Shown in pieces: positions 153 to 40,808 of a stretch of DNA of 64,000 nucleotides (positions within the stretch are counted from its first letter, which is position 1; every line of letters starts with the position of its first letter). The stretch lies in IMG/VR virus record IMGVR_UViG_3300032309_001546, positions 64,001 to 128,000 of that record. One strand, 5' to 3'. The notes under the pieces are model-generated. The model had not been told where the DNA came from. It searched no databases and was given only the letters and a program-made list of their open reading frames with translations. The stretch is from a virus. The translations under genes were made by a program, and so were the position numbers.

Positions 153-1301
153 TTATTCGTAGTCTCTTAATGCTTTCGCATATGGAAACCTAGGTACCCC
201 ATCAGGGGTTAGATTGAAATATTGAATAGTTACCTGCTTACCTATAAGTGAATCCTTGTTCTCCCATAGTCTTACAAGATACTCATGAGGGCCCATAATA
301 TTACTATTAAAGTGGCGACCATCTGACATGACCAGGGTAAATGCCCCAGCCATGCCAGACTTGTTCCCCTCGCCCTCAACAACACCAACAATTTCATATT
401 CGCTATCGATAAACTTCTTAAGCTTTAGAAGATTCTTACTTCGCTTATTTTCATAAGCAGTATTTCTTCTAAGCATAAGACCCTCATATCCTTCCTTAAG
501 ATATGCAGTAAGCTTAGCCTGGACTTCTTCCTGGCTGTTTACAGTGTGCGTTTCAACTGTTGTGACATATTTCATGTCGATCAGTTTCATACCAAACGTA
601 TTGTATTGCTTAAAAAACTTAAGACGATCAATGAAGTTACCATCTACCATGTTGTCGTAGCACCAGAACTGAATATACTTCTTGCTTTCAGCAAGTTGCG
701 CATCATCAATCTTCTGGCGCTTAACAAGTTCTACAATCCTATTAAAGTTATCTTTAAATTCATGATTGTAAAGTTCACCATCTAGCTGGACATCCGGGCA
801 CTTCTCAAAGAATGACTCAAGAGCTGAGTTAATATGAGGGCATGAAACAATCTTTTCATTGTTTCTAGTCCACATACCATCCTTATTGATCCTGCATCGA
901 ATGCCATCGAGCTTAGGTTGAGTATAAGCGGGCCAAGTAATGTCATCTGCATAGTCATCGTAATTCTTAGCGAGCATTACCTGATAGGGTAAAGCCTCAT
1001 CTACATTATCGACAGTCTCAGTATAACCCTTCTTGATCTGTTTATCCCACTTAGCTTTTGCTTCCTTTGCAGCTTGGTCAGCTGCAGTAGTCGCATTCTT
1101 CTTGCCAACATTCATTGGCTCACAAACAGTAGGCTTACTGGTAGTCTTAACACCATCAATATGCCCACTGGTTGTATAAAATGAACCATTACCTAAAACG
1201 GCAATGGTCCATTCCTCAATCTTATTGCCATTTACTTTCTTATAAAGTGTAGGTAAAAAGTAATTAGTTACAACATCATCAACAGTTTCTAGCTCTGCCA
1301 T
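153..1301 (-). CDS. lig: ATP-dependent DNA ligase
   Basis: Motif I QPKLDGIR, motif III LDGELY, EGYEGLMLR, KRSKNLLKLK and C-terminal OB domain ending PRFP. Start moved to MAELET at 1301, which has GGAGGA upstream. Confidence 0.95.
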   Translation of the reverse strand: MAELETVDDVVTNYFLPTLYKKVNGNKIEEWTIAVLGNGSFYTTSGHIDGVKTTSKPTVCEPMNVGKKNATTAADQAAKEAKAKWDKQIKKGYTETVDNVDEALPYQVMLAKNYDDYADDITWPAYTQPKLDGIRCRINKDGMWTRNNEKIVSCPHINSALESFFEKCPDVQLDGELYNHEFKDNFNRIVELVKRQKIDDAQLAESKKYIQFWCYDNMVDGNFIDRLKFFKQYNTFGMKLIDMKYVTTVETHTVNSQEEVQAKLTAYLKEGYEGLMLRRNTAYENKRSKNLLKLKKFIDSEYEIVGVVEGEGNKSGMAGAFTLVMSDGRHFNSNIMGPHEYLVRLWENKDSLIGKQVTIQYFNLTPDGVPRFPYAKALRDYE

Positions 1302-2350
1302 GCAAAGTAGTCCTCCCAATTAACAAATTCTGGATGATCAGAGAAAATAACATCTTCCTCAAGAAGATTAGAGCATTCGCCCTCGATGATCTCTGCAATA
1401 GTAGTCTGCATTTCTTTGAGTGTCTTGCATGTAACAAGCTCGTCGCGAAAGCGGAACTTAAATGGGTTACCTTCTTCTATCTTAGTTAGAATGTCACCTT
1501 TATTAAGTACAACGCAGGTGACGCCAGACAGGCGAATCGCAGCAATCATCTTATCAAGATTAAGATAATTAACAATTCTTTGACGTCCGGTTGTAATACC
1601 TTGTTCCTTGCCAATTCTGCCAATCTCAGCAAGAACTGGATCCTGCATTAAACTAACAGGAAACATAGGATCTGCCCCACTCTTAGTGTCGTACATCTTA
1701 CCAATGCCAATAATGCGAGTAATATCCATAGGCGAGAAGCCAAGTGAACAAGCATTATAAGGCAAAGTAGAACTACTAGTAACGTAAGGATAAGATCCAT
1801 GATCGATGTCTAGCCAGACACTCTGCGCGCCTTCTGCAAGGATAGAACCAAAAAGTTTCTCATCCCAGATCCACTTGGGATCAAGAACTTCAGCTGCACG
1901 AATTCCTTTACGCAACATCTTATCTGAGTAGCACGGAGCAATACCTTGCCCTGTAGTCCCAAGATGCGAAAGATAATTAGTGTCATAGCTAATGTGATCT
2001 TGAGTAATTACATGAGCCTTAGGTGAAACCTTAACAAGACTCGTATCAAATCTATTAACTTCTAGATAAGCAATCTCTGCCATGAACTTGCTAATATTGA
2101 TTACACAAGCAGGGCCGATAATGCTAGGAACACCGTGGAATACACCACTAGGGATAAGATGAGTCTTGTACTGCTTACCATCCAAGTAAACAGTATGACC
2201 TGCATTAGGGCCGCCGTTAAAGCGACAGACAAAGTCATAGTGTTGGTAATTAACCAATGAACTAACGACCTTGCCCTTGCCCTCGTCACCCCAAGCAAGC
2301 CCAACAACAACATCTACTGTATCAATCTCACGAGAATTAGCAAACTGCAT
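1289..2350 (-). CDS. purA: Adenylosuccinate synthetase (short form, canonical PurA not PurZ)
   Basis: GLAWGDEGKGK, RFNGGPNAGHT, EGAQ..LDIDHG.YPYVTSS, TTGRQR. The catalytic Asp of GDEGKG is retained. Confidence 0.95.
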   Translation of the reverse strand: MQFANSREIDTVDVVVGLAWGDEGKGKVVSSLVNYQHYDFVCRFNGGPNAGHTVYLDGKQYKTHLIPSGVFHGVPSIIGPACVINISKFMAEIAYLEVNRFDTSLVKVSPKAHVITQDHISYDTNYLSHLGTTGQGIAPCYSDKMLRKGIRAAEVLDPKWIWDEKLFGSILAEGAQSVWLDIDHGSYPYVTSSSTLPYNACSLGFSPMDITRIIGIGKMYDTKSGADPMFPVSLMQDPVLAEIGRIGKEQGITTGRQRIVNYLNLDKMIAAIRLSGVTCVVLNKGDILTKIEEGNPFKFRFRDELVTCKTLKEMQTTIAEIIEGECSNLLEEDVIFSDHPEFVNWEDYFAWQS

Positions 2351-2358
2351 AAATTTCC

Positions 2359-3417
2359 TTAAAAGGCATAGCGAACTTCACACCAGGGAATAAATTTCTT
2401 AATACCAGCAGAGAAAGCTTTAACATTGTCACCTTTAAGTCCATACTGATAGCATAGGACATCAGGCTTATTAGCTTTAGTTTGCTGGATTTCAGGAGTC
2501 CAAAGAAATTCTTCACCCTTAGGATTCCATTGCATGTTAATATCATGCAGATCAGTACTGTGAGTTAGAAAAATAACCTCAGATTTCATCTGAAGCTTGG
2601 CTCTGTCTGTTAGCTTACTATCCATAAGTTGCCATAGCTCAATCCAATCTTTCTTCCATTGCTTATCTCCATACATAATGACAGGAGAAAAGTTAGCATG
2701 AACCTCATAGCCTGCCTCAACAAGTTCGTTCATTGCATCAATACGATCTTCGATTGGAGAAGTTCTAATGTCAACATATTTAGACACTGCCTGAGGCATC
2801 AAACTGTAACGAATTCTAGTTCTGCTCTTAGGATTAAACTTTAAGAACGGATCAATATTAACAGTTTTAGTTGCAAAAGTCAACTTACCATGCTTAGTAC
2901 TCTTGATAGCTTCCATTAGTACAAATGGATTGTCACTAATCATTGCATCAATGCTGACGTCATTGTTATTGCCAATGTCATAGATCCAATATTCAGGATC
3001 ACACTGATTAGATTCGGGCTTAGGACCAAGCTCATTGCAGTGATCTACAATGCTTTCAGCAACCTTCTCACTATTAAGAAATACTGTCAAAGGATTACTG
3101 CCGCCCTTGCGCCGAGCAACATAGCAATACTGGCATGCACTTAAGCAGCCATTACTATGAGATGGAGCAATGAAGTCAGAGCTTCTACCGTTGACTGTAC
3201 TTGCAAGAATCTTAAGCTTACCAAGAACCAAGATGTGCTTCTTAGCCTTAATCCAATCAACAGGATCCATATCTACTAGATCTGGAATTTTCCAATGACT
3301 AGCAACTTTTTTAACCTGAGCATCAGGAAATCTATTTAGAATAGAATCAAGTCTGCTTTGCTCAGACTGTGAATAGTTATTATTCTCTACATAGATAGTC
3401 TTAAAGTCCAACTTCAA
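2359..3417 (-). CDS. Spore photoproduct lyase-family radical SAM protein
   Basis: NGRSSDFIAPS..NGCLSACQYCY (CX3CX2C), FATK, RIRYSLMP, RIDAMNELVEAGYEVHANFSPV. Confidence 0.88.
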   Translation of the reverse strand: MKLDFKTIYVENNNYSQSEQSRLDSILNRFPDAQVKKVASHWKIPDLVDMDPVDWIKAKKHILVLGKLKILASTVNGRSSDFIAPSHSNGCLSACQYCYVARRKGGSNPLTVFLNSEKVAESIVDHCNELGPKPESNQCDPEYWIYDIGNNNDVSIDAMISDNPFVLMEAIKSTKHGKLTFATKTVNIDPFLKFNPKSRTRIRYSLMPQAVSKYVDIRTSPIEDRIDAMNELVEAGYEVHANFSPVIMYGDKQWKKDWIELWQLMDSKLTDRAKLQMKSEVIFLTHSTDLHDINMQWNPKGEEFLWTPEIQQTKANKPDVLCYQYGLKGDNVKAFSAGIKKFIPWCEVRYAF

Positions 3418-5897: not shown

Positions 5898-7067
5898 TTA
5901 CGCCACAAGTTCTTTATACTTGTCACGCAATGCAAAATAAGCTAAGTCTTTAGCCTTAGCCTCGACCTCAAGATCGAGATCAAAAGGTGCATAAAGTAAA
6001 TTGTCAGAAATCTCATTTACATAATCATGATGAGATCTGTCATATTCATGATCTCGACCTTTTGAAATATGCAGTAATGGTTTGTATGCTTTAGAGCGCC
6101 ACCAATGAAAATCAAATGAACTTACAGGCTTAATAGACATTTGATAATTAGCATTATTAATTTCTGAAGGATGATCAATTACAAACTGAATATGCTTACT
6201 ATAATTAGTACGAGTTTTCCATGTTTCATGGCATGCTTCAAGCGCTTCAGTTAATGGCTCGCCTTCGTTATTAATTTTCCAATGATGCACATCTAGAGTG
6301 ATGGGCATACCAGGAAAATGTTTAATAAGTTCTTGCCATGTCCAGCAACCCTTGTCCTCGGTCTCAAAAACAATACGCTTAAAAGCATTAGGATAGTGCT
6401 TTAGTACCTGCAAAAGCATGACATTAACATTATTTGCAGTTATAGCTGGATTATCAGCGCCTCTACTAACGTGAATGTTAAGTGGACAAGAGTAATCAGC
6501 TGGGGCACCAATCCAGTCAAGAAACATTGCATGGGCAATAAGTTCTGCTCTAGATGAGTTCTGCACTACAGGTGATCCACCAAGACTAACAAACTCTGGA
6601 GGATGCATAGTCAAGCGACCACCTCCATCCAGATATTTCTGAACAGTCTTTCTTAGTTGAAGCTCAAGGCCATTAAAAGCTCCATCAAATCTACCTTTGA
6701 TCATAGAGTTAAAAACTTTACATGGTCTAATCCAATAATTAAAATTTTTATAGGTAAATTCTAGACTCTGTCCATAACTCCAGAATGGAAATAAATTACT
6801 GCTAATGCGATACAACTTGATATTGTTCTGAATGTTATAGTCTAGAACAGCAATCAATTCCTTAATATTATGAACATAGATATTAAAGAGAACTTTAGCG
6901 CCAATCTCCATATGGTCATAGTGCGCATACCAGTCATCAAGATGACGCCAACTGCCGTCAAATTGAACTGGCTCAAAGTTAAGAGTCTTGATCTTCTTAA
7001 GAGTAATAGTTTTAAAGTTAGTTTTATGTGTTCCTAGGCTATTACAACAGTAACCAAGTGTAATCAT
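5898..7067 (-). CDS. uvsE: UV-damage endonuclease (UvsE/UVDE)
   Basis: LGYCC, IKLYRISSNLFP, RLTMHP.EFV.L, NIHV, RIVFETED, LDVHH, LHIS...RSHHDY, VEAKAKD. Confidence 0.92.
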   Translation of the reverse strand: MITLGYCCNSLGTHKTNFKTITLKKIKTLNFEPVQFDGSWRHLDDWYAHYDHMEIGAKVLFNIYVHNIKELIAVLDYNIQNNIKLYRISSNLFPFWSYGQSLEFTYKNFNYWIRPCKVFNSMIKGRFDGAFNGLELQLRKTVQKYLDGGGRLTMHPPEFVSLGGSPVVQNSSRAELIAHAMFLDWIGAPADYSCPLNIHVSRGADNPAITANNVNVMLLQVLKHYPNAFKRIVFETEDKGCWTWQELIKHFPGMPITLDVHHWKINNEGEPLTEALEACHETWKTRTNYSKHIQFVIDHPSEINNANYQMSIKPVSSFDFHWWRSKAYKPLLHISKGRDHEYDRSHHDYVNEISDNLLYAPFDLDLEVEAKAKDLAYFALRDKYKELVA

Positions 7068-28816: not shown

Positions 28817-28941
28817 TCTCCAGTAAAGAGGTAACATTACCTCTGAGGTTATAAAAAGTGCTCCAGTTTACAGACATGGAGCAAGGTCACGGGACACCAT
28901 TATTTGTGCTCCCCTATACTAGGCTGTTTCTCACCTAGTAA

Positions 28942-29013
28942 TTCAATCATATGGGAATCGAACCCATAACTAGATATCCATAATGGTATATCTAGCGTCA
29001 CCAGACTAATCAA
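28942..29013 (-). ncRNA. tRNA-like element 2 (mini D-arm, elongated anticodon-position stem)
   Basis: TTGATTA-GTC-TGGT-GAC-G-CTAGATAT-ACCATTATGG-ATATCTAG-TT-ATGGG-TTCGATT-CCCAT-A-TGATTGA. Confidence 0.55.
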
Positions 29014-29470
29014 AAGGGTACGGGTCGTCTTATTTGCTAGCGTGCGAACCCCTTCCCAGTCGTTACTAGCGAACTAGTAACCACCCCATGTCTATATAAC
29101 TACTAGGGCAGGGGTCCCTAATAATTAGCCCATGTTTACTCTCATTACTCGCGGCAGGGCTCCGCCAGTAATAAACCCTATGTTTATCTCGTTACTAGAA
29201 GCAAGGGACTAACTAGTAACCACCCCGTGTTCATCTTGTCCATTAGTGGCTGAGGCCCACTAACAGCCAGCCTATCTTTATAGCCAGGTTTGCAACCCTG
29301 ACACCCCTAGGTTTCCATGAACGGTAGGCGCGTTCATGTGTTTCTAGAAGGATTAGAAGGTGACGTCTTGCAGTACGAACAATAGGGTTTACATCCCCTA
29401 CTATTCGCAATGTAACCTGCGTGACGCCGTAAACTTGTGAGCATTTTATAGACCTACTCAGGTCTGAGGA

Positions 29471-31169: not shown

Positions 31170-34100
31170 CTACTTCTTACCCGTGATACGGTTAAGACGT
31201 GCCGCGACACCGGCCTTCTTCTCCGAGGGAGCAGGGGCGGGCTTCTCTTCAGCCTCAACCTCGGCGTCGAAGTCATTGGGATCGATGAAGATAATCTTCA
31301 GGCCCGACTCTTCAGCGTAATCAACCGCATTCTTTGTACCGCCAGTGCTGCCATCCCAGACAGCAATGACGATATCGGCGCAGTCAATCATCTGCATGTT
31401 ACGGCGCTGCATGCAGAACTTGTCTTCGCCATAGGTCTTCTCGCTGACCTGGACGACTTCGCTGGCAACTTCCAGCATGTTCCAGTAGCGCTGCTTGGCT
31501 TCGCGGGGCCACATAGCCTCCTGCTCTACACAGGGGATCATGACCGTGAACGGGATACCCATCTCGTGCGCAATCTCTGCCGCATCCTGGTCAACGCCAA
31601 GGGCACCGCCAGTGATTAGCCAGAGCTTCTCACCGTGCTTGGCAAGACCACGCTCAAGCTGAGCCGCAATCTGTTCACGTACCCAGATGCGCTTCTCCGC
31701 ATTGGGATTGTATCCGCCGATCTTGTCGGGACGGTGACCAGTGAAGGCCACAAAGAAGTACTCCGTCTCTTCGGCTTCAACTTCCTCAGTTGCAGCCGCG
31801 ATCTTAACCTTGAAGGGATCGACATACAGCATACCGGGCTTGTAGTCTGCATACCCTTCGGGGCGGTTGTTGTGGGTAGACTTCGCGCCCGCAGGAGGAT
31901 TCGGCAGAGTGCTGACATCCCGCTTCTGGATGTAAAGCATTACTCCATCAAGTCGGGCTTCGTCATACCAGGCTTGAGGGCCCTTCTGGCGGATCTGCCA
32001 CTCGCTAAGGTCAACGCTATCAGCATCAAACTCGATGTAGGGGCCATGGTCCCCGTACACAATGCGTGCGTACTCGGTTGCAATAATGCTTCCATTCGGG
32101 GTTTGGATTTCCCCATCAAAGCCCTGACCATCCTCACGGAGTCCGAGTTTGGCTTCGACTTCACGCTTGTCGGCTTCGCGATTAGGCAAACCAAGCGTTG
32201 TGGACTTGAAGTCTTCGGACTCTTCGTCTTCGGCAACAGGGCACACAGCGGCCATCGAGGGGCCATTGTCTTCGTATCTGGCTTCGCAGGTCGGGCAGAG
32301 ACCGGCCACGAAATCCCCCTCGACTTTGCAGTCCTCACAGGCATTTGTGCAAATGCGGCAGCCAGCGCCCTCGCACACTTCGCACACAGATGTGGGGATG
32401 GACTCTTCTGCTTCTTCCTCAGTCTTGTTGGCAAGGCGCAGCAGGACGTCAGCGTGGCAGGCTTCGGGTGCACAATGGCAAATCAACGACTTGCCAGTAA
32501 GTTCTCCGAGGCTATCCATGAGATTAACCTGTGCCTTCACCCAAGCCTCGTACTTGGCAATGACTTCCTCACGGTTGCCATCGCGGCCAAGGACGAAGGG
32601 ATTACCCCACTTGCTGGGACGGCCAACGTATACCGCACCGGAAGGAATATCCTTATCTGCCCGGTTGTAGACGGCAGGTGCAGCGTTAGCAACGACCGGA
32701 GCGCTAGCCTCAGTGGCTTCAGACTCTTCGTCTTCGCTGTCCACCCAGCAATCGGTGTAATCGAAGCGGTCGCTGCTCTTGGCCTTCTCGTCTTCCTCAA
32801 AGACCTCGGACTCTTCCTCTTCGTCACCGTACTGGCTAGGGTCGAAGTCCGGGTTCTCTTCACCGAAGTCCGGCTCTTCTGCATCTTCCGGCTCGGGCAT
32901 CTCGTCAGCGTCCTCCGAGATGTCATACTCGTGCGAGGGCTCATCCTCGTAACCCTCCTCGTACGTATCCTCTTCAGGCTCATCACCAGAGAAGACATCG
33001 TTGAGATCCTCTTCGCCTCCACCCTGAGGACCGTTGTCGTCGCCAAGGAAGGTGAGGATCAGGAAGCTGTTCAAGCCCTGAGGCGCGAACCTGGTGCCAA
33101 CAGCCACGGTGCGACCCATGACAGTTTTACCATTCTCGTCCTTGGTCTTGATGTCGGGGTTCCACTCGGTAACCCACTCACGCTCCACAAGCTCTGCCTT
33201 CACCGCAGTACCCGGGAAGATCTCGATCAAGCGACGCAGGAAACCGAATGAGTCAGCAGCTTCAAGCGTGCTCATAGCGTTGAAGCTGTCGAGCTCAGCC
33301 TGCGCTTCTGCGATCTTTGTCTCGCTGGGCTTCTTGGCCTTCTTCAAGTCAGCCAGTGCGTGACGAAGCTCCTCACCCTTGTTCTTCCGACGAAGCTCGA
33401 TCTGACGACCGATTTCGCTGACAGTCGCAAGCTGACCCTCAAAGCCATTGGCCTCTCGACCATCGCTGATGCGCACGCCGGGCAGGCTGAGAAGACCATC
33501 GATCCCCCAGCCAAGCTTCTCGCCGTCACCGCCGAAGCCACCGCAGTTCTTCTCACCACGGATGTAGGCGAGGAGAGCTTCTGCGTCCTGGCGTACCGTC
33601 GGGGTACCACCCTTGCCCAAGTAGAGAGCAAGCTGACGGGCTTCACCGAGGCTGTTATCGTCGAGGCCGTTGATTGCGGCAATGCCATTGCTGGACATCC
33701 AGTCCGTGAGGTATTCCCAGGGACCGCCGACGAAGAACGCAGTGGTAGCGATACCGCCATTCGCCTTAAGGTTGCCATTGGCATCCTCGGTGATGGTGAT
33801 CTCAAGAGCCTGTGGCTTCGCATCCTTGCCGACCTTCTTGGCCTTCTCAGCAGGCTGCAGGTAACGATTGGCAAAGGCAAGCCAGGCCATCTTCACAGCA
33901 GCGTCGCGGTCTTCAGCCTCAAAGTTCTTGAGGATGTACGACTCGATCTGGGAGTCTACGAGTTCAATCGCCGCTCTGATGGGCATCGCCGAGTAGGCCA
34001 GCCAGAGTGCCTTCTTGGCACGCGAGATGTTGCCGCCAGCCAGCATTGCACTGACGACCCTGTAACGACGGTTGCTCTCGTGGCCTGCAGGAGCCATGAT

Positions 34101-37100
34101 CTTGTGGATCAGTTCCTGGTTGGTCCAAGCCTGGAGGTTCTTGAAGCTACCGGGGCTCCAGTTCCAGTAGAGCCAGGCCTCGGTCTCTTCGCCAGGGGCC
34201 TCGTCTTCCGTGCGACCAAGCCAAGCAGTGAGCGTCTGGTGCAGGACGTTCTGGCGACCAGCTTCCCACTGAGCATTGGCGAGGGATTCGACCTCATCGA
34301 TGCACCACTGGCGGTAGTCAGCCCAGAGGGTGTAGACCTTCGAGCTAAGCTCACCAGCGACGAGGTGGGTAACGATCTCGCCTTCTTCGTTGCGGACGGG
34401 AGCGGTCACCTTCGTGCCATTCTCGAACAGGGGCTGCATGTCTTCACCGAGGACAGCAACACGCTTGGCCGGGTCGACGAACAAGCTCTTCGCACCAAGG
34501 CTGAGCTTCCGCAGAACGGCAGGCACGAATGCCCAACCTTCACGGCCCTTGCCTTCGGTGACAAGGTCAAGCCAGACCTGGTAGACCTGCACCATCCGGT
34601 AGGATGCCCAGGCTTCAGCGTAACCCGTCATCTTGACCGCTGCGTCAACGATGTCGGACAACGTCACGCCGAAGAGGAGCGTCTCGGAGATCTCCTCACG
34701 AAGCTCCTCGAGGAAGGTAGGCAGCTTCACCCAGCCAACAGCCAGGGACATGCCGTAGATCTTCGCGTTAGCGACGATACCAATCGCCTTCTGGAAGACG
34801 TTCTCCTCCATGTTCATCACCGACTCGTACAAGCTCTCGTGGCTCATACCAGCAGTGGTGGCTTCGACCGGCGCTTCGGGCTCCGTAACGGCGGTAATGA
34901 CGAAGTTCTCCGTCTTCACCTTGAAAGCCTGACCGAGGATCGTGGCCGCGTTGAGGCGGGTCCACAGGCTCTTGTTCTCCGGGATACCGGCGACCATCTT
35001 AGCACGGAGCGCGTTCTTCTGTGCACGCTTCTCGGCGTTGAGCTTCGCCTTATCAGCAAGAGCGGTACGCCAGGCCAGACCCTTCACGATGAGCATGGCA
35101 AGCTTACCACGCGCAGTGGGGCAGCGGTCATCATAGTCCATGCCTTCGTTTGCCTGGAGCAGGAGGACTACCGTGTCTCCGCTCGCCGTGGTGAACATGA
35201 TCACCATACGGCCGCTTACGCCGATGATGAAGATATTCAGGCTTTCCGGCAGCTCACGGATCTCCGCAACCGTGCCCGACGTTTCGCCGGTGGGGTTACG
35301 GAAGAAGATTGCCAGGTTGGGCGCGCAGTTGTTCTTCGCCCAGCGAGCAAAGTTGGTGCAGTAGACAATAAGACGACCATCAGCCGTCTTCGTCTCCAGC
35401 TCCATGGTCTGCTTCGCCTTCGTAGCAACCTCCTCAGAGTGCTGCCCTTCAGCAATCCAAGCCGCATGCAGCATCGGCCAGAGGACCGGGATGGGGTAGG
35501 TTGCCCACAAGTCGCTTCCCTCCTCGGTAACAGGAGCGATCTTCATCGAGCCAGGCTCAATGTTCTTGCTCAAGGTGCCAACCAGCTGCTGTGCCAGCAT
35601 GCGGAAGGGGAGAACAGGGATTCGCATCGCGCCGAGGAGCTTCGCAAGAACGCTGTTGCGGTTGTCCTCGACCTTGGCCTCTTCGTCGCCAGCAACGAAG
35701 TCGTCAGCATCCTCGTCCAGACCCTTCAGGAAGTCGGGGAGACGCTTCTTGGCGTAGGCGATGTAGCCAGCAATGAGCTGGTAGAACTCCTTCGAGTTGA
35801 CCTCAGCTCCGAGAAGCATAAGGATCGACTGAAGCGACATAACCGCCTTCTCCTTCGTGAGCGCCGCAGTGCCGGGGATCCAGCAAAGGGCATAGTCGTT
35901 CTGGGTAGCGGACCACTCGGTCTTCACCTCACTGGCAATGATGCAGACGCCTTCAGGGAAGTACCGAGCCGGAAGCGGGATGCACATACCCTTGATCAGA
36001 CCTTCGCTGGTCAAGATACGAGCCACCATCGGAGCGGTCAGACCCATGGCCTTCGCCACGTCGGCACGGACAAGCACAAGGCCGTCGAAGAACTTGACCA
36101 GTGCAGCGGCAATCTTGCCCAGGTCCAGGACCTTACCCGGCAGGACAACGCGGGCAGTAACCCGCGAGATCCAGTACGAGTCAGCATACTTAGCAATGCG
36201 GCCCAGGGTCTTACCCTTGAACCGCAGAGCCGCCATGCTGACCTTCTTGGCTTCGGGCGTGCAGTAGAGGGTCATACCCTTCTGCAGAACCCGAATGGTG
36301 ACAAGGCCAAGCTTCTTAGCGTTGGCCACGGCATCGGTATCGTCGTCAGCGACAACGAGACCTTCGAGGAGTCCAGGGCTATCGTCAGCCGCAGGACTAG
36401 TAGCACACGCCTCCTCAAGGAAGGCTGCGAACGTGCCGGGAGTGCATACCCGGACTTTCTTGTTACCCATCTTGTTCTCCTTAGGGGTGGGTGCCCCGGT
36501 GTGCTTCGTCGAGGCCAGGATGATTCCCGGCTTAACGGAAGCTTTGGTGTCGTTGTTGGTGCTGGTGGCTTCACCGTTTAGGTCATTGTTGACCTCGGCA
36601 AAGATATCCTCGCAAGCCGCCATAAGACGAGCTGCGATGGCTGAGATGGCGTCGCTGGGGATGCCGGCATAGAGGCGGTCATAGCCACCTCTCATGGTCA
36701 ACTCGGTACCGTCCGCCTGGCAGACATTGCAGAATTGGCCCTTTGAGCCAAATCCTGCAACACCGCAACCGACGCAGGTCTCGGGCCCGCAGTCGGCTTC
36801 GCTGGGCTTAGCCTTAACCATGGCCTCGAGCTTCGTCGCAAGGGCATTGCCCACTACAACGAACAGGATACCGACGATGCCGACGACAAACAGAAAGCCG
36901 GGTCCTGCAAGGAACTCGGCCGGGCTCTTAGCCCAAGCGGCTTCGACCGCCTGGCTGAACGTGGGTGCTGCAGCGGCGAGTACGGCGATAAGCGGGGAGC
37001 TGGCCTTCACCGCATTGCGGCGTTGGCGGCTCAGTTCCCGCTTTCTGGTGCGCTTCTGGGCATCCTCAGTCGCCGTCATGGCGAAGAAGACGCTTGCGGT

Positions 37101-37967
37101 ATCCTGTGCGGACTTGCCCGTGTTACCACAGACAGCGGCTTCGATGCGCTTGGCAAGGGTGGTCTTGATGACCACAATCTTAGCGCCGATAGCTACGGGC
37201 TTCACAGGAGTAACCTGCTTGGCCTTTGCCGCCGCGATGTGCGCCGAGAAGGTCATGGCCTTCGTGACGCGGGGGAATTTCGCGACGGGCTTCGCAGCAG
37301 CCTTAGCGACGGGCTTCGCAACGGGCTTGGAGGCAGCCTTGGGAGCAGGCTTTACAGCGGGCTCAGCGACGGCTTCCACTGCCACTTCCGTGACAGCAGC
37401 AACCTCGATGGCAGGGGCAGGGGCAGGCTTCACAGGAGCCTTAGCGACAGGCTTGGCAATTGCCTTCGGAGCGGGCTTGGCGACAGCCTTGGGGATATGG
37501 ACCCCCTTCGACCGCAGCCAGCGGTCAAGGCGGATAGTGGTCCAGCAGTTACGCCGGGCCAAACGGGCTGCATGGCGGGTAAGCGCCTGCAGCCTGAGCG
37601 ACGCCGCCGACTGGGCAGCAACAGTCCGCCGAAGCGGAAGGACGATGGCGTATACGTTCGCCAGAAAACGGGCCACGAAGGCCAAGATGACACGGACCAT
37701 GGGATGGTCCTTACCCTCCGCGAGGAGGATTGGGGTGGTCGGCTTCACCGAATTGGCAAAGCGGACCACGAGGGAAGCGGGGATGCGGGGAGCGATGCGG
37801 GTTGCAGCCTCCGTGACCAGCACGAAGCTGGTGACGAAGAAGCTGACTAGGGCAGCGGCCTGCTGCGAAAGGGTGGGGGCCAGCTGGGCCTCCACGGTCA
37901 GCGCCGTTGCGAAAACGGCGAACACCACAGCCACGATGGCGGTGATGGCGAGTTGGATCCGAGACAT
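31170..37967 (-). CDS. 2265-aa polyvalent protein: N-terminal TM/AKP-rich region, putative single-chain two-barrel RNA polymerase core, acidic tract, DUF4326, Zn-finger, unknown domain, C-terminal YspA-type SLOG
   Basis: Ordered motifs FFDG, R.....IKG, FFRNP, GMDYDD, IG..AN, SDIVDAAVK.TG; DUF4326 VYVGRPSKWGNPF...L.CHCAP..CHADVL; SLOG AFTGHRP...GGALGVD...MQRRN..MID.....IAVWDG..GGT.N.V.YA. GGAGG RBS. Confidence 0.75.
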   Translation of the reverse strand: MSRIQLAITAIVAVVFAVFATALTVEAQLAPTLSQQAAALVSFFVTSFVLVTEAATRIAPRIPASLVVRFANSVKPTTPILLAEGKDHPMVRVILAFVARFLANVYAIVLPLRRTVAAQSAASLRLQALTRHAARLARRNCWTTIRLDRWLRSKGVHIPKAVAKPAPKAIAKPVAKAPVKPAPAPAIEVAAVTEVAVEAVAEPAVKPAPKAASKPVAKPVAKAAAKPVAKFPRVTKAMTFSAHIAAAKAKQVTPVKPVAIGAKIVVIKTTLAKRIEAAVCGNTGKSAQDTASVFFAMTATEDAQKRTRKRELSRQRRNAVKASSPLIAVLAAAAPTFSQAVEAAWAKSPAEFLAGPGFLFVVGIVGILFVVVGNALATKLEAMVKAKPSEADCGPETCVGCGVAGFGSKGQFCNVCQADGTELTMRGGYDRLYAGIPSDAISAIAARLMAACEDIFAEVNNDLNGEATSTNNDTKASVKPGIILASTKHTGAPTPKENKMGNKKVRVCTPGTFAAFLEEACATSPAADDSPGLLEGLVVADDDTDAVANAKKLGLVTIRVLQKGMTLYCTPEAKKVSMAALRFKGKTLGRIAKYADSYWISRVTARVVLPGKVLDLGKIAAALVKFFDGLVLVRADVAKAMGLTAPMVARILTSEGLIKGMCIPLPARYFPEGVCIIASEVKTEWSATQNDYALCWIPGTAALTKEKAVMSLQSILMLLGAEVNSKEFYQLIAGYIAYAKKRLPDFLKGLDEDADDFVAGDEEAKVEDNRNSVLAKLLGAMRIPVLPFRMLAQQLVGTLSKNIEPGSMKIAPVTEEGSDLWATYPIPVLWPMLHAAWIAEGQHSEEVATKAKQTMELETKTADGRLIVYCTNFARWAKNNCAPNLAIFFRNPTGETSGTVAEIRELPESLNIFIIGVSGRMVIMFTTASGDTVVLLLQANEGMDYDDRCPTARGKLAMLIVKGLAWRTALADKAKLNAEKRAQKNALRAKMVAGIPENKSLWTRLNAATILGQAFKVKTENFVITAVTEPEAPVEATTAGMSHESLYESVMNMEENVFQKAIGIVANAKIYGMSLAVGWVKLPTFLEELREEISETLLFGVTLSDIVDAAVKMTGYAEAWASYRMVQVYQVWLDLVTEGKGREGWAFVPAVLRKLSLGAKSLFVDPAKRVAVLGEDMQPLFENGTKVTAPVRNEEGEIVTHLVAGELSSKVYTLWADYRQWCIDEVESLANAQWEAGRQNVLHQTLTAWLGRTEDEAPGEETEAWLYWNWSPGSFKNLQAWTNQELIHKIMAPAGHESNRRYRVVSAMLAGGNISRAKKALWLAYSAMPIRAAIELVDSQIESYILKNFEAEDRDAAVKMAWLAFANRYLQPAEKAKKVGKDAKPQALEITITEDANGNLKANGGIATTAFFVGGPWEYLTDWMSSNGIAAINGLDDNSLGEARQLALYLGKGGTPTVRQDAEALLAYIRGEKNCGGFGGDGEKLGWGIDGLLSLPGVRISDGREANGFEGQLATVSEIGRQIELRRKNKGEELRHALADLKKAKKPSETKIAEAQAELDSFNAMSTLEAADSFGFLRRLIEIFPGTAVKAELVEREWVTEWNPDIKTKDENGKTVMGRTVAVGTRFAPQGLNSFLILTFLGDDNGPQGGGEEDLNDVFSGDEPEEDTYEEGYEDEPSHEYDISEDADEMPEPEDAEEPDFGEENPDFDPSQYGDEEEESEVFEEDEKAKSSDRFDYTDCWVDSEDEESEATEASAPVVANAAPAVYNRADKDIPSGAVYVGRPSKWGNPFVLGRDGNREEVIAKYEAWVKAQVNLMDSLGELTGKSLICHCAPEACHADVLLRLANKTEEEAEESIPTSVCEVCEGAGCRICTNACEDCKVEGDFVAGLCPTCEARYEDNGPSMAAVCPVAEDEESEDFKSTTLGLPNREADKREVEAKLGLREDGQGFDGEIQTPNGSIIATEYARIVYGDHGPYIEFDADSVDLSEWQIRQKGPQAWYDEARLDGVMLYIQKRDVSTLPNPPAGAKSTHNNRPEGYADYKPGMLYVDPFKVKIAAATEEVEAEETEYFFVAFTGHRPDKIGGYNPNAEKRIWVREQIAAQLERGLAKHGEKLWLITGGALGVDQDAAEIAHEMGIPFTVMIPCVEQEAMWPREAKQRYWNMLEVASEVVQVSEKTYGEDKFCMQRRNMQMIDCADIVIAVWDGSTGGTKNAVDYAEESGLKIIFIDPNDFDAEVEAEEKPAPAPSEKKAGVAARLNRITGKK

Positions 37968-38259
37968 GAGTTACCTCCTAGTCAACGGGGTCCAGCGCGA
38001 TCTATAGGGAAGCATTCCCTATGACCGACATACCAGTGTCTTGTAACACACTGGAAGATTTCTGGTCCTTTATGGGAAGGACCCTGTTTAAAACCCTGGC
38101 TTTCTGTTCGCTCCGGCATTGACCCATACTACCTTCTTGGAAGATACTGGGGTGCCATTCGAACTATCCGGCCCATTGCGACCACCCCTTAGCAGAGAGC
38201 TGGTCCACATTTTAGCCCATAGTAGTGCAACTATTTAAGTATCGTACAAAAAATACCCT

Positions 38260-39810
38260 TCCTGGGAAGTTCATTAAAACACTTACACACCCAGTGTGCA
38301 GTTTGCTCAACGCATAAATTACTAGTCTGATACTTGTTAACAGACCAGCGATCTATACGCCGTGAACCCATCCAGGGACGCCAGGAGCCTTGCCTCCGTC
38401 CTGGGATTAGCTTCGCACATTAGCATGACATAAAGCGTTTTATCCCTTAAAGGATTCTTGCGCTGCAGTCTTCTTCTCCCACTACATTACTAGACTAGAG
38501 GTTCAATGGGCCTCTATGCTAGGGATCTTGCCGCCGAATTGCGCGAGAAGATATAACCATCCTACTCCTTTTGAGAGCAAGAGCATCTAGTAATTACCTG
38601 ACCTATGTGTAGTTATCTATGGGCAAACAGATCCTAACAAGAACTGAACCTCTGGCAGCGGTTTCTTGTTAGTTTAGGCGTACAAGCGCCTATCCCCTCT
38701 TATACGTGCATGCCTGGCAGTCATCACATACTAATTGGGGGCTGATCTTTTGCTTGCATAGTGATTTGGGTTCTTCTTACCAGTAAGAGCGGCGCTACTC
38801 GCTAAAACCAGTATATAGGGTGTTTATAACCCAATCCAAATGCAAACGGCTCCTCGGTATTTCAACCGAATCACAGCCTTCTACAAGTGTCAAGTGTGGG
38901 AGTCAAAGACACAGCATCCTTCTTGGGACGCTTTGTGTCATACTTCTGTTACGAAGCTAAAGCAACGAATCTCACCATCTCACAGACCAGGTCCTGTCTA
39001 CACAGTAATCAACTGTATAGCGGTTATCTGATCTGTCCTCGTTGATTCCTCGTTATCTCTGCAGAAGGGCTACCGCTTAAAGTAGAAATCCTCCTGGATA
39101 ACTTGGTCCACCGGCCACACCTGCTAGAGTGCGCCTACTCTGTCTCACGACAGTTGGGGAATTATGCAGCATTTACTCTGTAAAAACAGGGAAAGGGTTC
39201 AGCACTTGCCGCCTTGCTTAAGGGCGGGAGTTTGCCTATCACGAGATCTGCTTGTGTCGGTTTTGCGGGGTGTTTTTGTTGAGGTTCCCCTTTTGCCTCC
39301 TTTTTTAAAGTCCGTACTCTCTTTCGAGGACAACAGACTTAGTGCGCGTAATCAACGCTTGGGAAAGTTAAAACCCATATAGTCATCTTTGGTGAGGGAT
39401 GACGCCCTACTGCCGACAGGCAGACCCCTAAAATCTCTATTAGCCATACTTGACATCCACACCACCGACATATTAGGAGCTTTCGCCCCCGGAAGAACTG
39501 TTCCTCCTTGGTGTTTCAGTCTGTGTTGCAGGCCGTACGAGATCTTAGGTTGACAGTTTTTCTGCTACCGACTTTTAGGGATTGCTCCCTCCGCCGGATT
39601 TATGCAGGAACACAGTTTTGGCTGTTAGCCTAGCTGCTTATACTGTCCTCGTGTCCTCTCCGACCATCCACCTTTGGGCATGGCCAGATACTGCACAAGT
39701 CAACGAACCGGTAAGATTCGTTGCTTATTTTTTATGGGGCGTTAACTACGTGCAAAACCTTGCCAACGCTGATCCCCACATATGGTCACTCCATATGTTT
39801 AAGACTCCAC
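38260..39810 (-). ncRNA. Candidate large structured non-coding RNA (about 1.55 kb)
   Basis: No minus-strand ORF of 60 aa or more; bounded by two copies of the cassette element; dense in inverted repeats. Confidence 0.5.
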
Positions 39811-39999
39811 TGTTTAGCCCATAGTATTCTTTTGACGACTATTTTTGGACTATTTGAGTAAAGTAAAACAATTTAACCCATAACTATACAACTCTTTGAG
39901 TATTAGAGAAAAAATAGCCCTTAACGCGGGCTAGACGTGCTTTTCTGTTCCCAAGAAGCAACTCTCGGATGGGCACCACCCCATCAGGCACCTCCCGTT

Positions 40000-40287
40000 T
40001 CAGGGAGACGGGCACTCCCCATCTTTGAGGTGACGCTTGCTGCGCACACAGCCGTATTCGGCCATGCGAGCCTCCACCTTGCGAAGGTGAAGAGTGTCAC
40101 CCCAAACCGAGATGTAGGGTTTATTAGCCAAAGCTCCGAGAAGCCGGCCAATTCCCCACATCACGTCGGAAGCCTCGTCCTTGAGTTCTTCAAGGTTTTT
40201 AACCTCGAAAAGCTCTACTGCCTCTTCGGCAATATGGACGATAGCAACCCGGATGGGAAGCACCTCAAGACATTTACAGAAATGCAT
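40000..40287 (-). CDS. Small MazG-like NTP pyrophosphatase-fold protein
   Basis: HIAEEAVELFE...ELKDEASDV (EExxE...ExxD); AAGGAG RBS. Confidence 0.55.
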   Translation of the reverse strand: MHFCKCLEVLPIRVAIVHIAEEAVELFEVKNLEELKDEASDVMWGIGRLLGALANKPYISVWGDTLHLRKVEARMAEYGCVRSKRHLKDGECPSP

Positions 40288-40445
40288 CTGTAGACTCCTT
40301 GTGGTAATGCTGTATGCAGTACAGCGCTGTGAGTAAAAGGATCTTTACTTCACTGTTTAGCCCAGACTAGTGTACTATTTAAGTATGTTTCAAAGAATGA
40401 CCCATCTTGCGATGGGTCACTCAGTGATGTCTCTCTTCCCTTTCT

Positions 40446-40808
40446 CTACTTCCGCCAGGCCCCAGTACGAGCCTCGACCACAGTCTTGAGGTTGCAGTAG
40501 AGGTTGCCCACCGCATAGCGGCAGGGGGTAGCGGTGGTCAGCCAGTCCTCGTTGGACTGAAGGTCGGGACCCTTGGCCATGGCCAGAGAGTAGCGAGCTT
40601 CCTCTGACAACTGGCATTTGGCCAGAGTCTTGCGGTGCACCGAGACCTTGACGGTGTCGATCTCGCCGCTGAAAGAAGCCGCCACGTGGTTCCAGCCGAT
40701 GGCCTTGAGGGCCTCGACGATCTCCGTCTTGTAGACCGAGACGGGAAGGGTGGGGGGGAAGGAGATAAGGAGCGCGCTATCCGTCACATCATTGATCTTC
40801 TTGCACAT
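40446..40808 (-). CDS. Hypothetical cassette gene
   Basis: Start MCKK after GGAGG; GC3-rich codons; has its own repeat element. Confidence 0.75.
   Translation of the reverse strand: MCKKINDVTDSALLISFPPTLPVSVYKTEIVEALKAIGWNHVAASFSGEIDTVKVSVHRKTLAKCQLSEEARYSLAMAKGPDLQSNEDWLTTATPCRYAVGNLYCNLKTVVEARTGAWRK

What the first reader, a model, noticed from the sequence alone, without database searches (positions are those of the whole stretch)
38260..39810. A 1.55-kb cassette with no ORF: candidate large structured RNA
Seen: this interval occupies a cassette slot with a doubled upstream element (39849, 39891) and ends at the next element (38230), yet has no minus-strand ORF of 60 aa or more. It is full of stems, e.g. 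ACATATGG-tcact-CCATATGT (about 39778), AACGAA..TTCGTT (about 39702), GTCATC..GATGAC (about 39382), CCGCCTT..AAGGGCGG (about 39209), CTAACAAGAA..TTCTTGTTAG (about 38634), GGACG..CGTCC (about 38376). I found no RNase P, tmRNA, group I or group II signatures. Established: phages encode large structured RNAs such as GOLLD and ROOL. Inference: a new large ncRNA or a polycistron of small RNAs expressed early.
Basis: partly seen in the sequence, partly recalled or inferred. Interest (0 to 1): 0.78.

Follow-up and report, generated by a model that had tools for sequence, protein, structure and literature searches.

The report
Giant structured noncoding RNA in phage
A freshwater phage carries a 1.56-kb gene-sized stretch that encodes no protein. 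It is kept more constant than its protein-coding neighbours and folds into a very stable, covariation-supported RNA matching no known RNA family, probably a new and unusually large phage noncoding RNA.

Summary
Window 38247-39812 (minus strand) has no minus-strand ORF of 60 aa or more, and no stop-codon recoding opens it. It sits between a cassette-type promoter element and a cassette-type terminator signature.

Six further distinct homologues were found in metagenome contigs, always between the same 95-aa gene and the same giant polymerase gene. The stretch is 93-95% identical among them. Third codon positions are only 63-75% identical in the polymerase gene and 83-90% in the 95-aa gene. Substitutions show no 3-nt phase, and 21 of 26 indels are 1 nt.

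A fold predicted from the window sequence alone is kept in the relatives: 21 double compensatory changes against 2.2 ± 1.4 in a partner-swap null. Whole helices are replaced by different but still complementary sequences. Folding z-scores are -7.9 and -9.8, and the minus strand folds 81 kcal/mol better than the plus strand. Rfam 15 gives no match.

Best reading: a new, very large structured phage ncRNA, inherited together with a QDE-1/crAss-type single-chain RNA polymerase module. Transcription could not be tested, the function is unknown, and its weak terminator leaves open that it is also a long leader of the polymerase mRNA.

The parts
40000..40287 (-). 95-aa gene (no Pfam or PHROG family), the conserved upstream neighbour of the RNA
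   Evidence: ORF. No family. Homologues of about 82-93% protein identity lie directly upstream of the RNA in all contigs that hold it.
39915..39933 (-). Hairpin plus U-run terminator of the 95-aa gene
   Evidence: Terminator scan. The hairpin folds at -10 kcal/mol.
39864..39903 (-). Extra (distal) promoter-like element, a 40-nt insertion
   Evidence: Present in the window and L025. Absent from L016, L017, L019 and L021. The blastn lengths imply L023 lacks it too.
39805..39862 (-). Proximal promoter-like cassette element (TACTCAAATAGT, spacer, ATGGGCTAA-ACA-GTGG); the presumed start of the RNA lies near 39812
   Evidence: Pattern match at 39808-39824 with 0 mismatches. Same element class as about 12 cassettes. 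Conserved in all 7 homologues.
38247..39812 (-). Body of the candidate RNA, about 1566 nt and 47% GC; ends are approximate
   Evidence: No ORF. 93-95% identity without codon phase. About 68% of alignment columns are paired in a consensus fold of 539 pairs, with 1.1% broken cells. No Rfam match.
39739..39805 (-). Two 5' hairpins (39805-39772 and 39769-39739)
   Evidence: Consensus fold, 24 pairs, none broken.
38961..39725 (-). Domain I, closed by a 15-bp helix (39725-39711 with 38975-38961); holds the longest invariant blocks (39277-39199 and 39197-39140) and five GNRA tetraloops
   Evidence: z = -7.94. Helix table. Invariant runs. Loops listed; one loop varies GAAA to GGAA, both GNRA.
38982..39106 (-). 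Subdomain of domain I with helix replacement: two alternative, each self-complementary, stem versions
   Evidence: 7 of 41 pairs are changed on both sides and kept.
38407..38960 (-). Domain II, closed by a long irregular rod (38960-38896 with 38482-38407)
   Evidence: z = -9.75. Helix table.
38483..38761 (-). Variable subdomain of domain II with the densest covariation
   Evidence: 12 pairs changed on both sides against 5.3 ± 1.6 in shuffles (0/500) and 1-4 in slid controls; 97.5% of cells are paired.
38278..38405 (-). 3' region with three hairpins, including a 24-bp hairpin (38362-38338 with 38332-38308)
   Evidence: Consensus fold with 5 wobble-type changes in the long hairpin.
38244..38272 (-). 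Terminator-like end of the unit: a weak 4-bp hairpin, then GGGUAUUUUUU, the same tail signature as the other cassettes
   Evidence: Sequence. It folds at only -6.1 kcal/mol (z = -0.2), against -10 to -20 kcal/mol for other cassette terminators. Invariant in all 7 homologues.
38206..38235 (-). Next promoter-like element, upstream of the polymerase gene
   Evidence: Pattern match with 0 mismatches. Conserved in relatives.
37968..38205 (-). Structured 5' leader of the polymerase mRNA, ending in an AGGAGG Shine-Dalgarno sequence
   Evidence: 8 of 73 consensus pairs are changed on both sides and kept. z = -3.69.
31170..37967 (-). 2265-aa protein: an N-terminal extension with hydrophobic segments and KPA repeats, a single-chain two-barrel RNA-polymerase core, then DUF4326 and YpsA/SLOG domains
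   Evidence: Pfam. AlphaFold model of residues 450-1450, pLDDT 79. Foldseek hits to QDE-1, RDR2, crAss-like phi14:2 gp66, P74 gp62 and P23-45 gp96 at probability 0.90-1.0 with TM about 0.2-0.38. N-terminus.

Best explanation
The interval encodes a new, very large (about 1.56 kb) structured noncoding RNA read from the minus strand. It occupies one slot of the phage's array of single-gene cassettes. A phage-type promoter element (ATGGGCTAA-N3-GTGG, 39824-39808) lies in front and a cassette-type terminator signature (38272-38244) at the end.

The transcript is not translated. It folds into two 5' hairpins, a 765-nt domain I, a 554-nt domain II closed by a long rod, and a 3' hairpin cluster. There are about 30 hairpins in all, several with GNRA tetraloops. 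Selection acts on the folded RNA itself.

Inferred, not shown: it is made together with the small cassette genes and the polymerase gene, because they share the promoter class. It works as an RNA (scaffold, ribonucleoprotein partner or decoy) linked to the QDE-1/crAss-type single-chain RNA polymerase module with which it is always inherited. Because its terminator hairpin is weak, part of the transcripts probably run on into the structured polymerase leader.
For: (1) Not coding. There is no minus-strand ORF over 46 aa and no rescue by recoding. Substitutions fall 63/60/59 over the three phases, and 21 of 26 indels are 1 nt. The candidate ORFs are frameshifted among homologues.

(2) Purifying selection on the nucleotides. 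Seven distinct homologues are 91-97% identical. Against the same relatives, the RNA is 93-95% identical. Third codon positions are 63-75% identical in the polymerase core and 83-90% in the 95-aa gene.

(3) Covariation. With a fold predicted from the window sequence only, relatives show 72 kept variant pair types (21 double changes) and 34 broken. A partner-swap null gives 2.2 ± 1.4 double and 62 ± 2 broken (0/1000); the slid controls agree. The consensus fold has 539 pairs: 41 with wobble-type changes, 23 with double changes, and 43 of 3773 cells broken. On 38483-38761 the tool counts 12 double-change pairs against 5.3 ± 1.6 in shuffles (0/500) and 1-4 when slid. On 38982-39106 it counts 7 double-change pairs. 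Alternative versions of whole helices are distributed mosaically among the homologues.

(4) Stability and strand. z = -7.94 and -9.75 against -3.85 for coding sequence. The minus strand folds at -560.9 kcal/mol and the plus strand at -479.3. A GNRA loop changes GAAA to GGAA.

(5) Transcription-unit anatomy. The promoter-like and terminator-like elements are shared with about 12 cassettes.

(6) No known family. There is no Rfam 15 hit at the gathering score or at E up to 10.

(7) Linkage. All 7 copies sit between the 95-aa gene and the window-type polymerase. Two lineages that keep the 95-aa gene but carry another polymerase allele (about 30% identity) lack the RNA.
Against: There are only 7 close homologues (at least 91% identity) from one narrow phage clade. 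Most pairs (451 of 539) never vary, long-range helices are unsupported, and the covariation comes from about 8 helices and few independent events.

High identity could partly reflect recent recombination of this segment rather than selection.

The terminator hairpin is weak, at -6.1 kcal/mol, so the unit may not be independent of the polymerase mRNA.

The coding control also folds below its shuffles (z = -3.85).

Linkage with the polymerase may be plain physical linkage, because the swapped module also contains other genes. No function can be read from the sequence.
Confidence: 0.7

Rival explanations
1. It is a giant cis-acting leader. Transcripts from the promoter at 39824-39808 read through the weak terminator, so the 1.56-kb structure plus the 240-nt leader form one long 5' untranslated region. 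That region would control the synthesis, stability or localisation of the polymerase mRNA.
For: The RNA always lies directly upstream of the window-type polymerase gene and is absent where another polymerase allele is present. Its terminator hairpin is the weakest of the cassettes tested, at -6.1 against -10 to -20 kcal/mol. The adjacent 240-nt leader is itself structured and covaries.
Against: A complete, conserved promoter-like element lies between the RNA and the leader (38206-38235). The terminator tail signature (GGGUAUUUUUU) is invariant. From my own knowledge rather than a tool result, no bacterial or phage leader approaches this size.
Confidence: 0.15
2. It is a precursor that is cut, for example by RNase III or RNase E at the long duplexes, into several small RNAs that act separately.
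For: There are about 30 hairpins and several long, nearly perfect duplexes. The variable subdomains evolve as independent modules, and helix versions are distributed mosaically.
Against: Predicted domain-closing helices of 15 to about 60 bp tie distant parts together and show only wobble-type changes with no breaks. There are no repeated units within the RNA. No antisense match of about 20 nt or more exists elsewhere in the phage genome.
Confidence: 0.08
3. It is a DNA-level element, such as a replication origin, a packaging site or single-stranded DNA structures, rather than an RNA gene.
For: It is a long non-coding stretch in a region with SSB genes and polymerase-like genes. Hairpins could also form in single-stranded DNA.
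Against: There is strong strand asymmetry, 81 kcal/mol in favour of the minus strand, which depends on G-U pairs. Forty-one pairs change between Watson-Crick and G-U pairs. GNRA loops are conserved. The unit is bracketed by promoter-like and terminator-like elements. There are no iterons or AT-rich repeats, and GC is 47%.
Confidence: 0.04
4. It is decayed genes or a set of short translated ORFs.
For: Other lineages carry ordinary 96-aa and 313-aa genes in the same slot. Plus-strand ORFs of 52-80 aa exist.
Against: It is more conserved than the third codon positions of neighbouring genes, and no phase stands out. Most indels are 1 nt, and the candidate ORFs are frameshifted among homologues. 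It has no nucleotide similarity to the genes that fill the slot elsewhere.
Confidence: 0.02

Closest known systems
GOLLD RNA (Rfam RF01998) and ROOL RNA (RF03087)
   Same: Both are large, ornate, protein-free structured RNAs often carried by phages or prophages. They have many hairpins and GNRA-type loops, an unknown function, and were discovered from lake or environmental sequence. They were recently shown to be RNA-only assemblies (PMC12286853).
   Different: There is no covariance-model match even at E up to 10. This RNA is about twice the size of GOLLD (about 800 nt, from my knowledge). It sits in a promoter/terminator cassette next to a single-chain RNA polymerase, not near tRNA genes. 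It is known from one narrow phage clade only. Oligomerisation was not tested.
OLE RNA (RF01071) and raiA RNA
   Same: They are large bacterial noncoding RNAs with complex conserved folds that act as ribonucleoprotein or structural RNAs.
   Different: There is no model match. Those RNAs are cellular, not phage-borne, are about 200-600 nt long, and have other gene contexts.
Group I and group II introns, RNase P RNA, rRNA
   Same: They are of comparable size and helix density, have multi-domain folds and use GNRA tetraloops.
   Different: No Rfam model matches. The flanking genes are complete, with their own stop, terminator and promoter, so nothing is interrupted. The genome encodes no reverse transcriptase.
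Structured leaders and pre-primer RNAs (for example ColE1 RNA II; phage early-transcript RNase III sites)
   Same: They are non-coding transcripts whose fold, not a product, is functional. They lie next to a replication or transcription enzyme gene, and read-through into the next gene is possible.
   Different: They are several-fold smaller. Here a separate promoter-like element for the downstream gene intervenes. No origin function was tested.

Membership tests
Any described RNA family (Rfam 15: GOLLD, ROOL, OLE, HEARO, raiA, group I/II introns, RNase P, tmRNA, rRNA, 6S and others) | Covariance-model score at or above the family's gathering score | tested here: not met
   In the window, only 5 tRNAs elsewhere reach the gathering score. 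With permissive filters on 37900-40500, the only hit is a spurious human lncRNA model at 21.8 bits against 45 required, E = 0.75.
Large ornate structured ncRNA (operational class) | Length of several hundred nucleotides or more without protein-coding capacity | tested here: met
   About 1566 nt. No minus-strand ORF over 46 aa, no recoding rescue, no codon phase, 1-nt indels.
Large ornate structured ncRNA (operational class) | Conserved complex secondary structure supported by compensatory changes | tested here: met
   21 double changes against 2.2 ± 1.4 in the partner-swap null, on a fold from one sequence. 12 against 5.3 ± 1.6 in the tool's shuffles. Helix replacements. Support is limited to about 8 helices; 451 of 539 pairs never vary.
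Large ornate structured ncRNA (operational class) | Recurrence in many independent genomes or lineages | tested here: inconclusive
   Seven distinct copies come from different metagenomes, but all are at least 91% identical and from one phage clade. None was found in IMG/VR contigs, species genomes or more distant relatives.
Large ornate structured ncRNA (operational class) | Expressed as a stable RNA | not testable with these tools
Cassette of this phage's promoter/terminator array | Upstream TACTYAAATAGT...ATGRGYTAA-N3-TGG element and a downstream hairpin followed by a GGGYUAUYUUUU tail | tested here: met
   Element at 39862-39805 and tail at 38258-38248. However, the terminator stem is only 4 bp.
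Self-splicing intron or retroelement | Interrupts a host gene, or is accompanied by a reverse transcriptase or maturase | tested here: not met
   The flanking genes are complete units. PF00078 is absent from the genome.

The most novel reading that the evidence does not exclude
The RNA is a dedicated partner of the neighbouring QDE-1-like single-chain polymerase. It would be a template, primer source or structural cofactor of an enzyme whose eukaryotic relatives copy RNA. The phage would then carry an RNA-plus-polymerase module without precedent in bacterial viruses, and the RNA would be the largest non-ribosomal structured RNA known from a phage.
Probability: 0.1. Interest if true: 0.95.

Novelty: new variant of a known kind. 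Interest (0 to 1): 0.8.

Why it matters
Very large structured noncoding RNAs outside the ribosome are rare in bacteria and phages. The few known ones (GOLLD, ROOL, OLE) turned out to form unprecedented RNA-only assemblies, and their functions are still unknown. From my own knowledge, this candidate is about twice the size of GOLLD.

Its folding stability is extreme, and it is conserved about as well as first and second codon positions of its neighbours. It has a defined promoter/terminator frame and a fixed partnership with an unusual single-chain two-barrel RNA polymerase module. It is therefore a concrete target for structure work (cryo-EM, chemical probing). It also offers a way to ask what large phage RNAs do during infection.

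Tried and rejected
- Stop-codon recoding (TGA, TAG or TAA as sense) does not open a frame.
- blastn of the region against 50,697 phage records gave no match.
- Viral contigs found through the 95-aa gene (L001-L007) share only that gene at about 50% identity; they hold no RNA by blastn or nhmmer.
- The N-terminal polymerase query against viral contigs found nothing.
- Exact-motif scans: a 32-mer and a 26-mer in viral contigs and a 24-mer in species genomes found none. A 20-mer in metagenome contigs gave one true homologue (L025) and five chance matches inside an unrelated protein-coding gene (L026-L030).
- Whole-record searches of related viral contigs were not possible.
- A covariance model of a 130-nt subdomain found only the 7 known copies among 244 kb of related loci.
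- Contexts of distant polymerase relatives (L024, L031, L032) show no long gene-free gap.
- The polymerase core has no PDB match by sequence; only the fold search worked.
- No reverse transcriptase is present.
- A ribosome-sponge idea was dropped. There are five GGAGG motifs, of which about 1.5 would be expected by my own estimate, but most lie in predicted stems.
- The literature searches found no description of this RNA. The IMG/VR structured-RNA survey reports motifs of 29-151 nt only.

Full report
**Setting.** The window is bases 64001-128000 of a 145.9-kb linear virus record from IMG/VR, estimated 84% complete. It encodes a terminase and a portal protein, five tRNAs and DNA-repair genes. 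Relatives come from metagenome assemblies, one labelled freshwater.

From about 38.2 to 45.7 kb the minus strand is an array of short transcription units. Each has a hairpin plus U-rich tail (21 terminator-like sites against 7.8 expected). This is followed by a repeated element: TACTYAAATAGT, a variable spacer, then ATGRGYTAA-N3-TGG (8 matches to the core against 1.0 expected; copies listed). The finding is one slot of this array.

**The observation.** On the minus strand, 38260-39810 holds only ORFs of 31-46 aa. No reading of a stop codon as sense opens a frame. It is the only stretch of more than 800 nt in the genome with no ORF of 50 aa or more on either strand. A promoter-like element ends at 39808 and the next one at 38206. 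The 'doubled' element is a 40-nt insertion found in the window and in L025, but not in four other aligned homologues.

**Homologues.** A search with the core of the neighbouring 2265-aa protein found seven proteins of 80-95% identity. Their contigs all show a gene-free gap of about 1.98 kb between a 95-aa gene and the large gene. One more copy came from a 20-mer scan of metagenome contigs; the other five hits of that scan were chance matches in an unrelated gene. This gives seven distinct sequences, 91-97% identical. Nothing similar was found in phage records, IMG/VR contigs or species genomes.

**Not coding, yet strongly conserved.** Compared with the same relatives, the RNA region is 93-95% identical, with no difference between the three phases. 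In the polymerase core, codon positions 1, 2 and 3 are 86-93%, 88-94% and 63-75% identical. In the 95-aa gene the third position is 83-90% identical. So the region is kept about as well as non-synonymous positions of its neighbours.

The 182 substituted columns fall 63/60/59 over the three phases, and 21 of 26 indels are single bases. The only ORF present in all copies, a plus-strand 72-aa frame, changes its C-terminal third by frameshift in three of seven copies.

**Structure.** The minus strand of 38247-39746 folds at -560.9 kcal/mol with a centroid close to the optimum. The plus strand reaches -479.3 with a poor centroid. Domain I (38961-39725) has z = -7.94 and domain II (38407-38960) has z = -9.75. 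A coding control has z = -3.85 and the polymerase leader z = -3.69.

For an unbiased covariation test I folded the window sequence alone and asked how the other six sequences treat its 527 pairs. There were 72 variant pair types that stay paired, 21 of them changed on both sides, and 34 broken. When partners are swapped among pairs of the same type, the null gives 2.2 ± 1.4 double changes and 62 ± 2 broken (0 of 1000 as extreme). Sliding the partners gives 4-9 double changes and 80-91 broken.

The seven-sequence consensus fold has 539 pairs. Of these, 451 are invariant, 41 carry wobble-type changes and 23 carry double changes. Only 43 of 3773 cells are unpaired.

In the most variable part (38483-38761) the counting tool finds 12 pairs changed on both sides. 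Shuffles give 5.3 ± 1.6 (0/500) and slid controls give 1-4. In 38982-39106, 7 of 41 pairs are double-compensated.

Several helices exist in two or three unrelated but internally complementary versions. These versions are distributed mosaically among the copies, so the events are independent. One GNRA loop varies GAAA to GGAA, and four other GNRA loops are invariant.

**Limits of the structure evidence.** Most pairs never vary, and the long-range helices have only wobble-type support. The sample is seven close sequences.

**Identity.** Rfam 15 gives no hit at the gathering score or at E up to 10. There is no reverse transcriptase in the genome, and no gene is interrupted. The region has no second copy and no antisense match of about 20 nt elsewhere in the genome. 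A survey of structured RNAs in IMG/VR reports only motifs of 29-151 nt (PMC10690425). My literature searches found no description of this RNA.

**Neighbourhood.** The downstream gene has Pfam DUF4326 and YpsA/SLOG domains at its C-terminus. An AlphaFold model of residues 450-1450 (pLDDT 79) matches QDE-1, plant RDR2, the virion polymerase of crAss-like phage phi14:2, and the P74 and P23-45 phage polymerases, at Foldseek probability 0.90-1.0 but with low TM scores of about 0.2-0.38.

The family is tiny: 20 representatives among 1.8 billion proteins. Its 240-nt leader is also a conserved structure, with 8 of 73 pairs double-compensated.

Two lineages keep the 95-aa gene (82% protein identity and about 87% nucleotide identity) but carry a polymerase allele of only about 30% identity. 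One has the polymerase right after the 95-aa gene (L033). The other has ordinary 96-aa and 313-aa genes in the slot (L037-L039). Neither has the RNA. Homology breaks at the cassette junction near 39894-39911. More distant polymerase relatives also lack a long gap, and a covariance model of a 130-nt subdomain finds only the seven copies. The RNA is therefore inherited with the window-type polymerase module. This may reflect function or mere linkage.

**How it probably works.**
- Shown: selection maintains a folded minus-strand RNA, not a protein.
- Inferred from anatomy: it is transcribed from the cassette-type promoter together with the small genes and the polymerase gene.
- Uncertain: whether it ends at its own terminator. 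The hairpin there is only 4 bp (-6.1 kcal/mol, against -10 to -20 for other cassettes), although the tail signature is kept. Some read-through into the polymerase leader is likely.
- My best reading (0.7) is an independent, trans-acting structural RNA of a new class. The main rival (0.15) is a giant leader of the polymerase mRNA. A processed polycistron (0.08), a DNA-level element (0.04) and decayed genes (0.02) follow.
- What the RNA does is unknown. A role with the polymerase module is speculation.

**Verdict.** The scan's earlier notes on this genome describe the same stretch and its neighbours. No note from other DNA reports this RNA.

Noticed in passing
window 37968-38205 (-): The 5' leader of the polymerase gene is itself a conserved structured RNA. 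Eight of 73 consensus pairs change on both sides and stay paired, and z = -3.69. It ends in an AGGAGG Shine-Dalgarno sequence.
   Followed up: partly
window 33618-36620 (-), within ORF 31170-37967: The core of the 2265-aa protein models (pLDDT 79) as a single-chain two-barrel RNA polymerase. The best Foldseek matches are QDE-1, RDR2, crAss-like phi14:2 gp66, P74 gp62 and P23-45 gp96. Only 20 representatives of this family exist among 1.8 billion proteins.
   Followed up: yes
window 36408-37967 (-): The N-terminal 520 residues of that protein are missing from the other polymerase alleles. They contain several hydrophobic, membrane-helix-like segments and a lysine/proline/alanine repeat (KPA/AKP) tract. 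No Pfam family matches.
   Followed up: no
L031:4244-13655 and L032:6445-13637: In distant relatives the polymerase-like core is fused to a PIF1-type helicase. It is followed by a separate YpsA/DUF4326 gene and SSB genes, and in L031 also by a PolyA_pol-family gene. This context looks more like replication than transcription.
   Followed up: no
L033:3909-8059; L037:1615-4615: There is a module swap at the cassette junction after the 95-aa gene. These lineages carry a polymerase allele of about 30% identity and no RNA. L037-L039 have 96-aa and 313-aa genes in the slot.
   Followed up: yes
alignment A2, e.g. window 39097-39057, 38740-38694, 38672-38634: Alternative versions of single helices are shared in different combinations by the seven RNA copies. 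This implies recombination inside the RNA gene.
   Followed up: partly
window 39354-39350 and 39011-39007 (-): Two invariant hairpins carry the same loop context (G-UUGAUUA-C). They may be a repeated binding or contact motif.
   Followed up: no
window 28838-29242: This is a second stretch without any ORF of 50 aa or more on either strand. Parts of 28852-29357 are 95-96% identical in relatives and are retained even in L033. Earlier notes describe a pseudoknot array here.
   Followed up: no
window 1289-2350, 2359-3417, 5898-7067 (-): The phage encodes an adenylosuccinate-synthetase-like protein, a spore-photoproduct-lyase-like radical SAM enzyme and a UvdE-type UV endonuclease.
   Followed up: no
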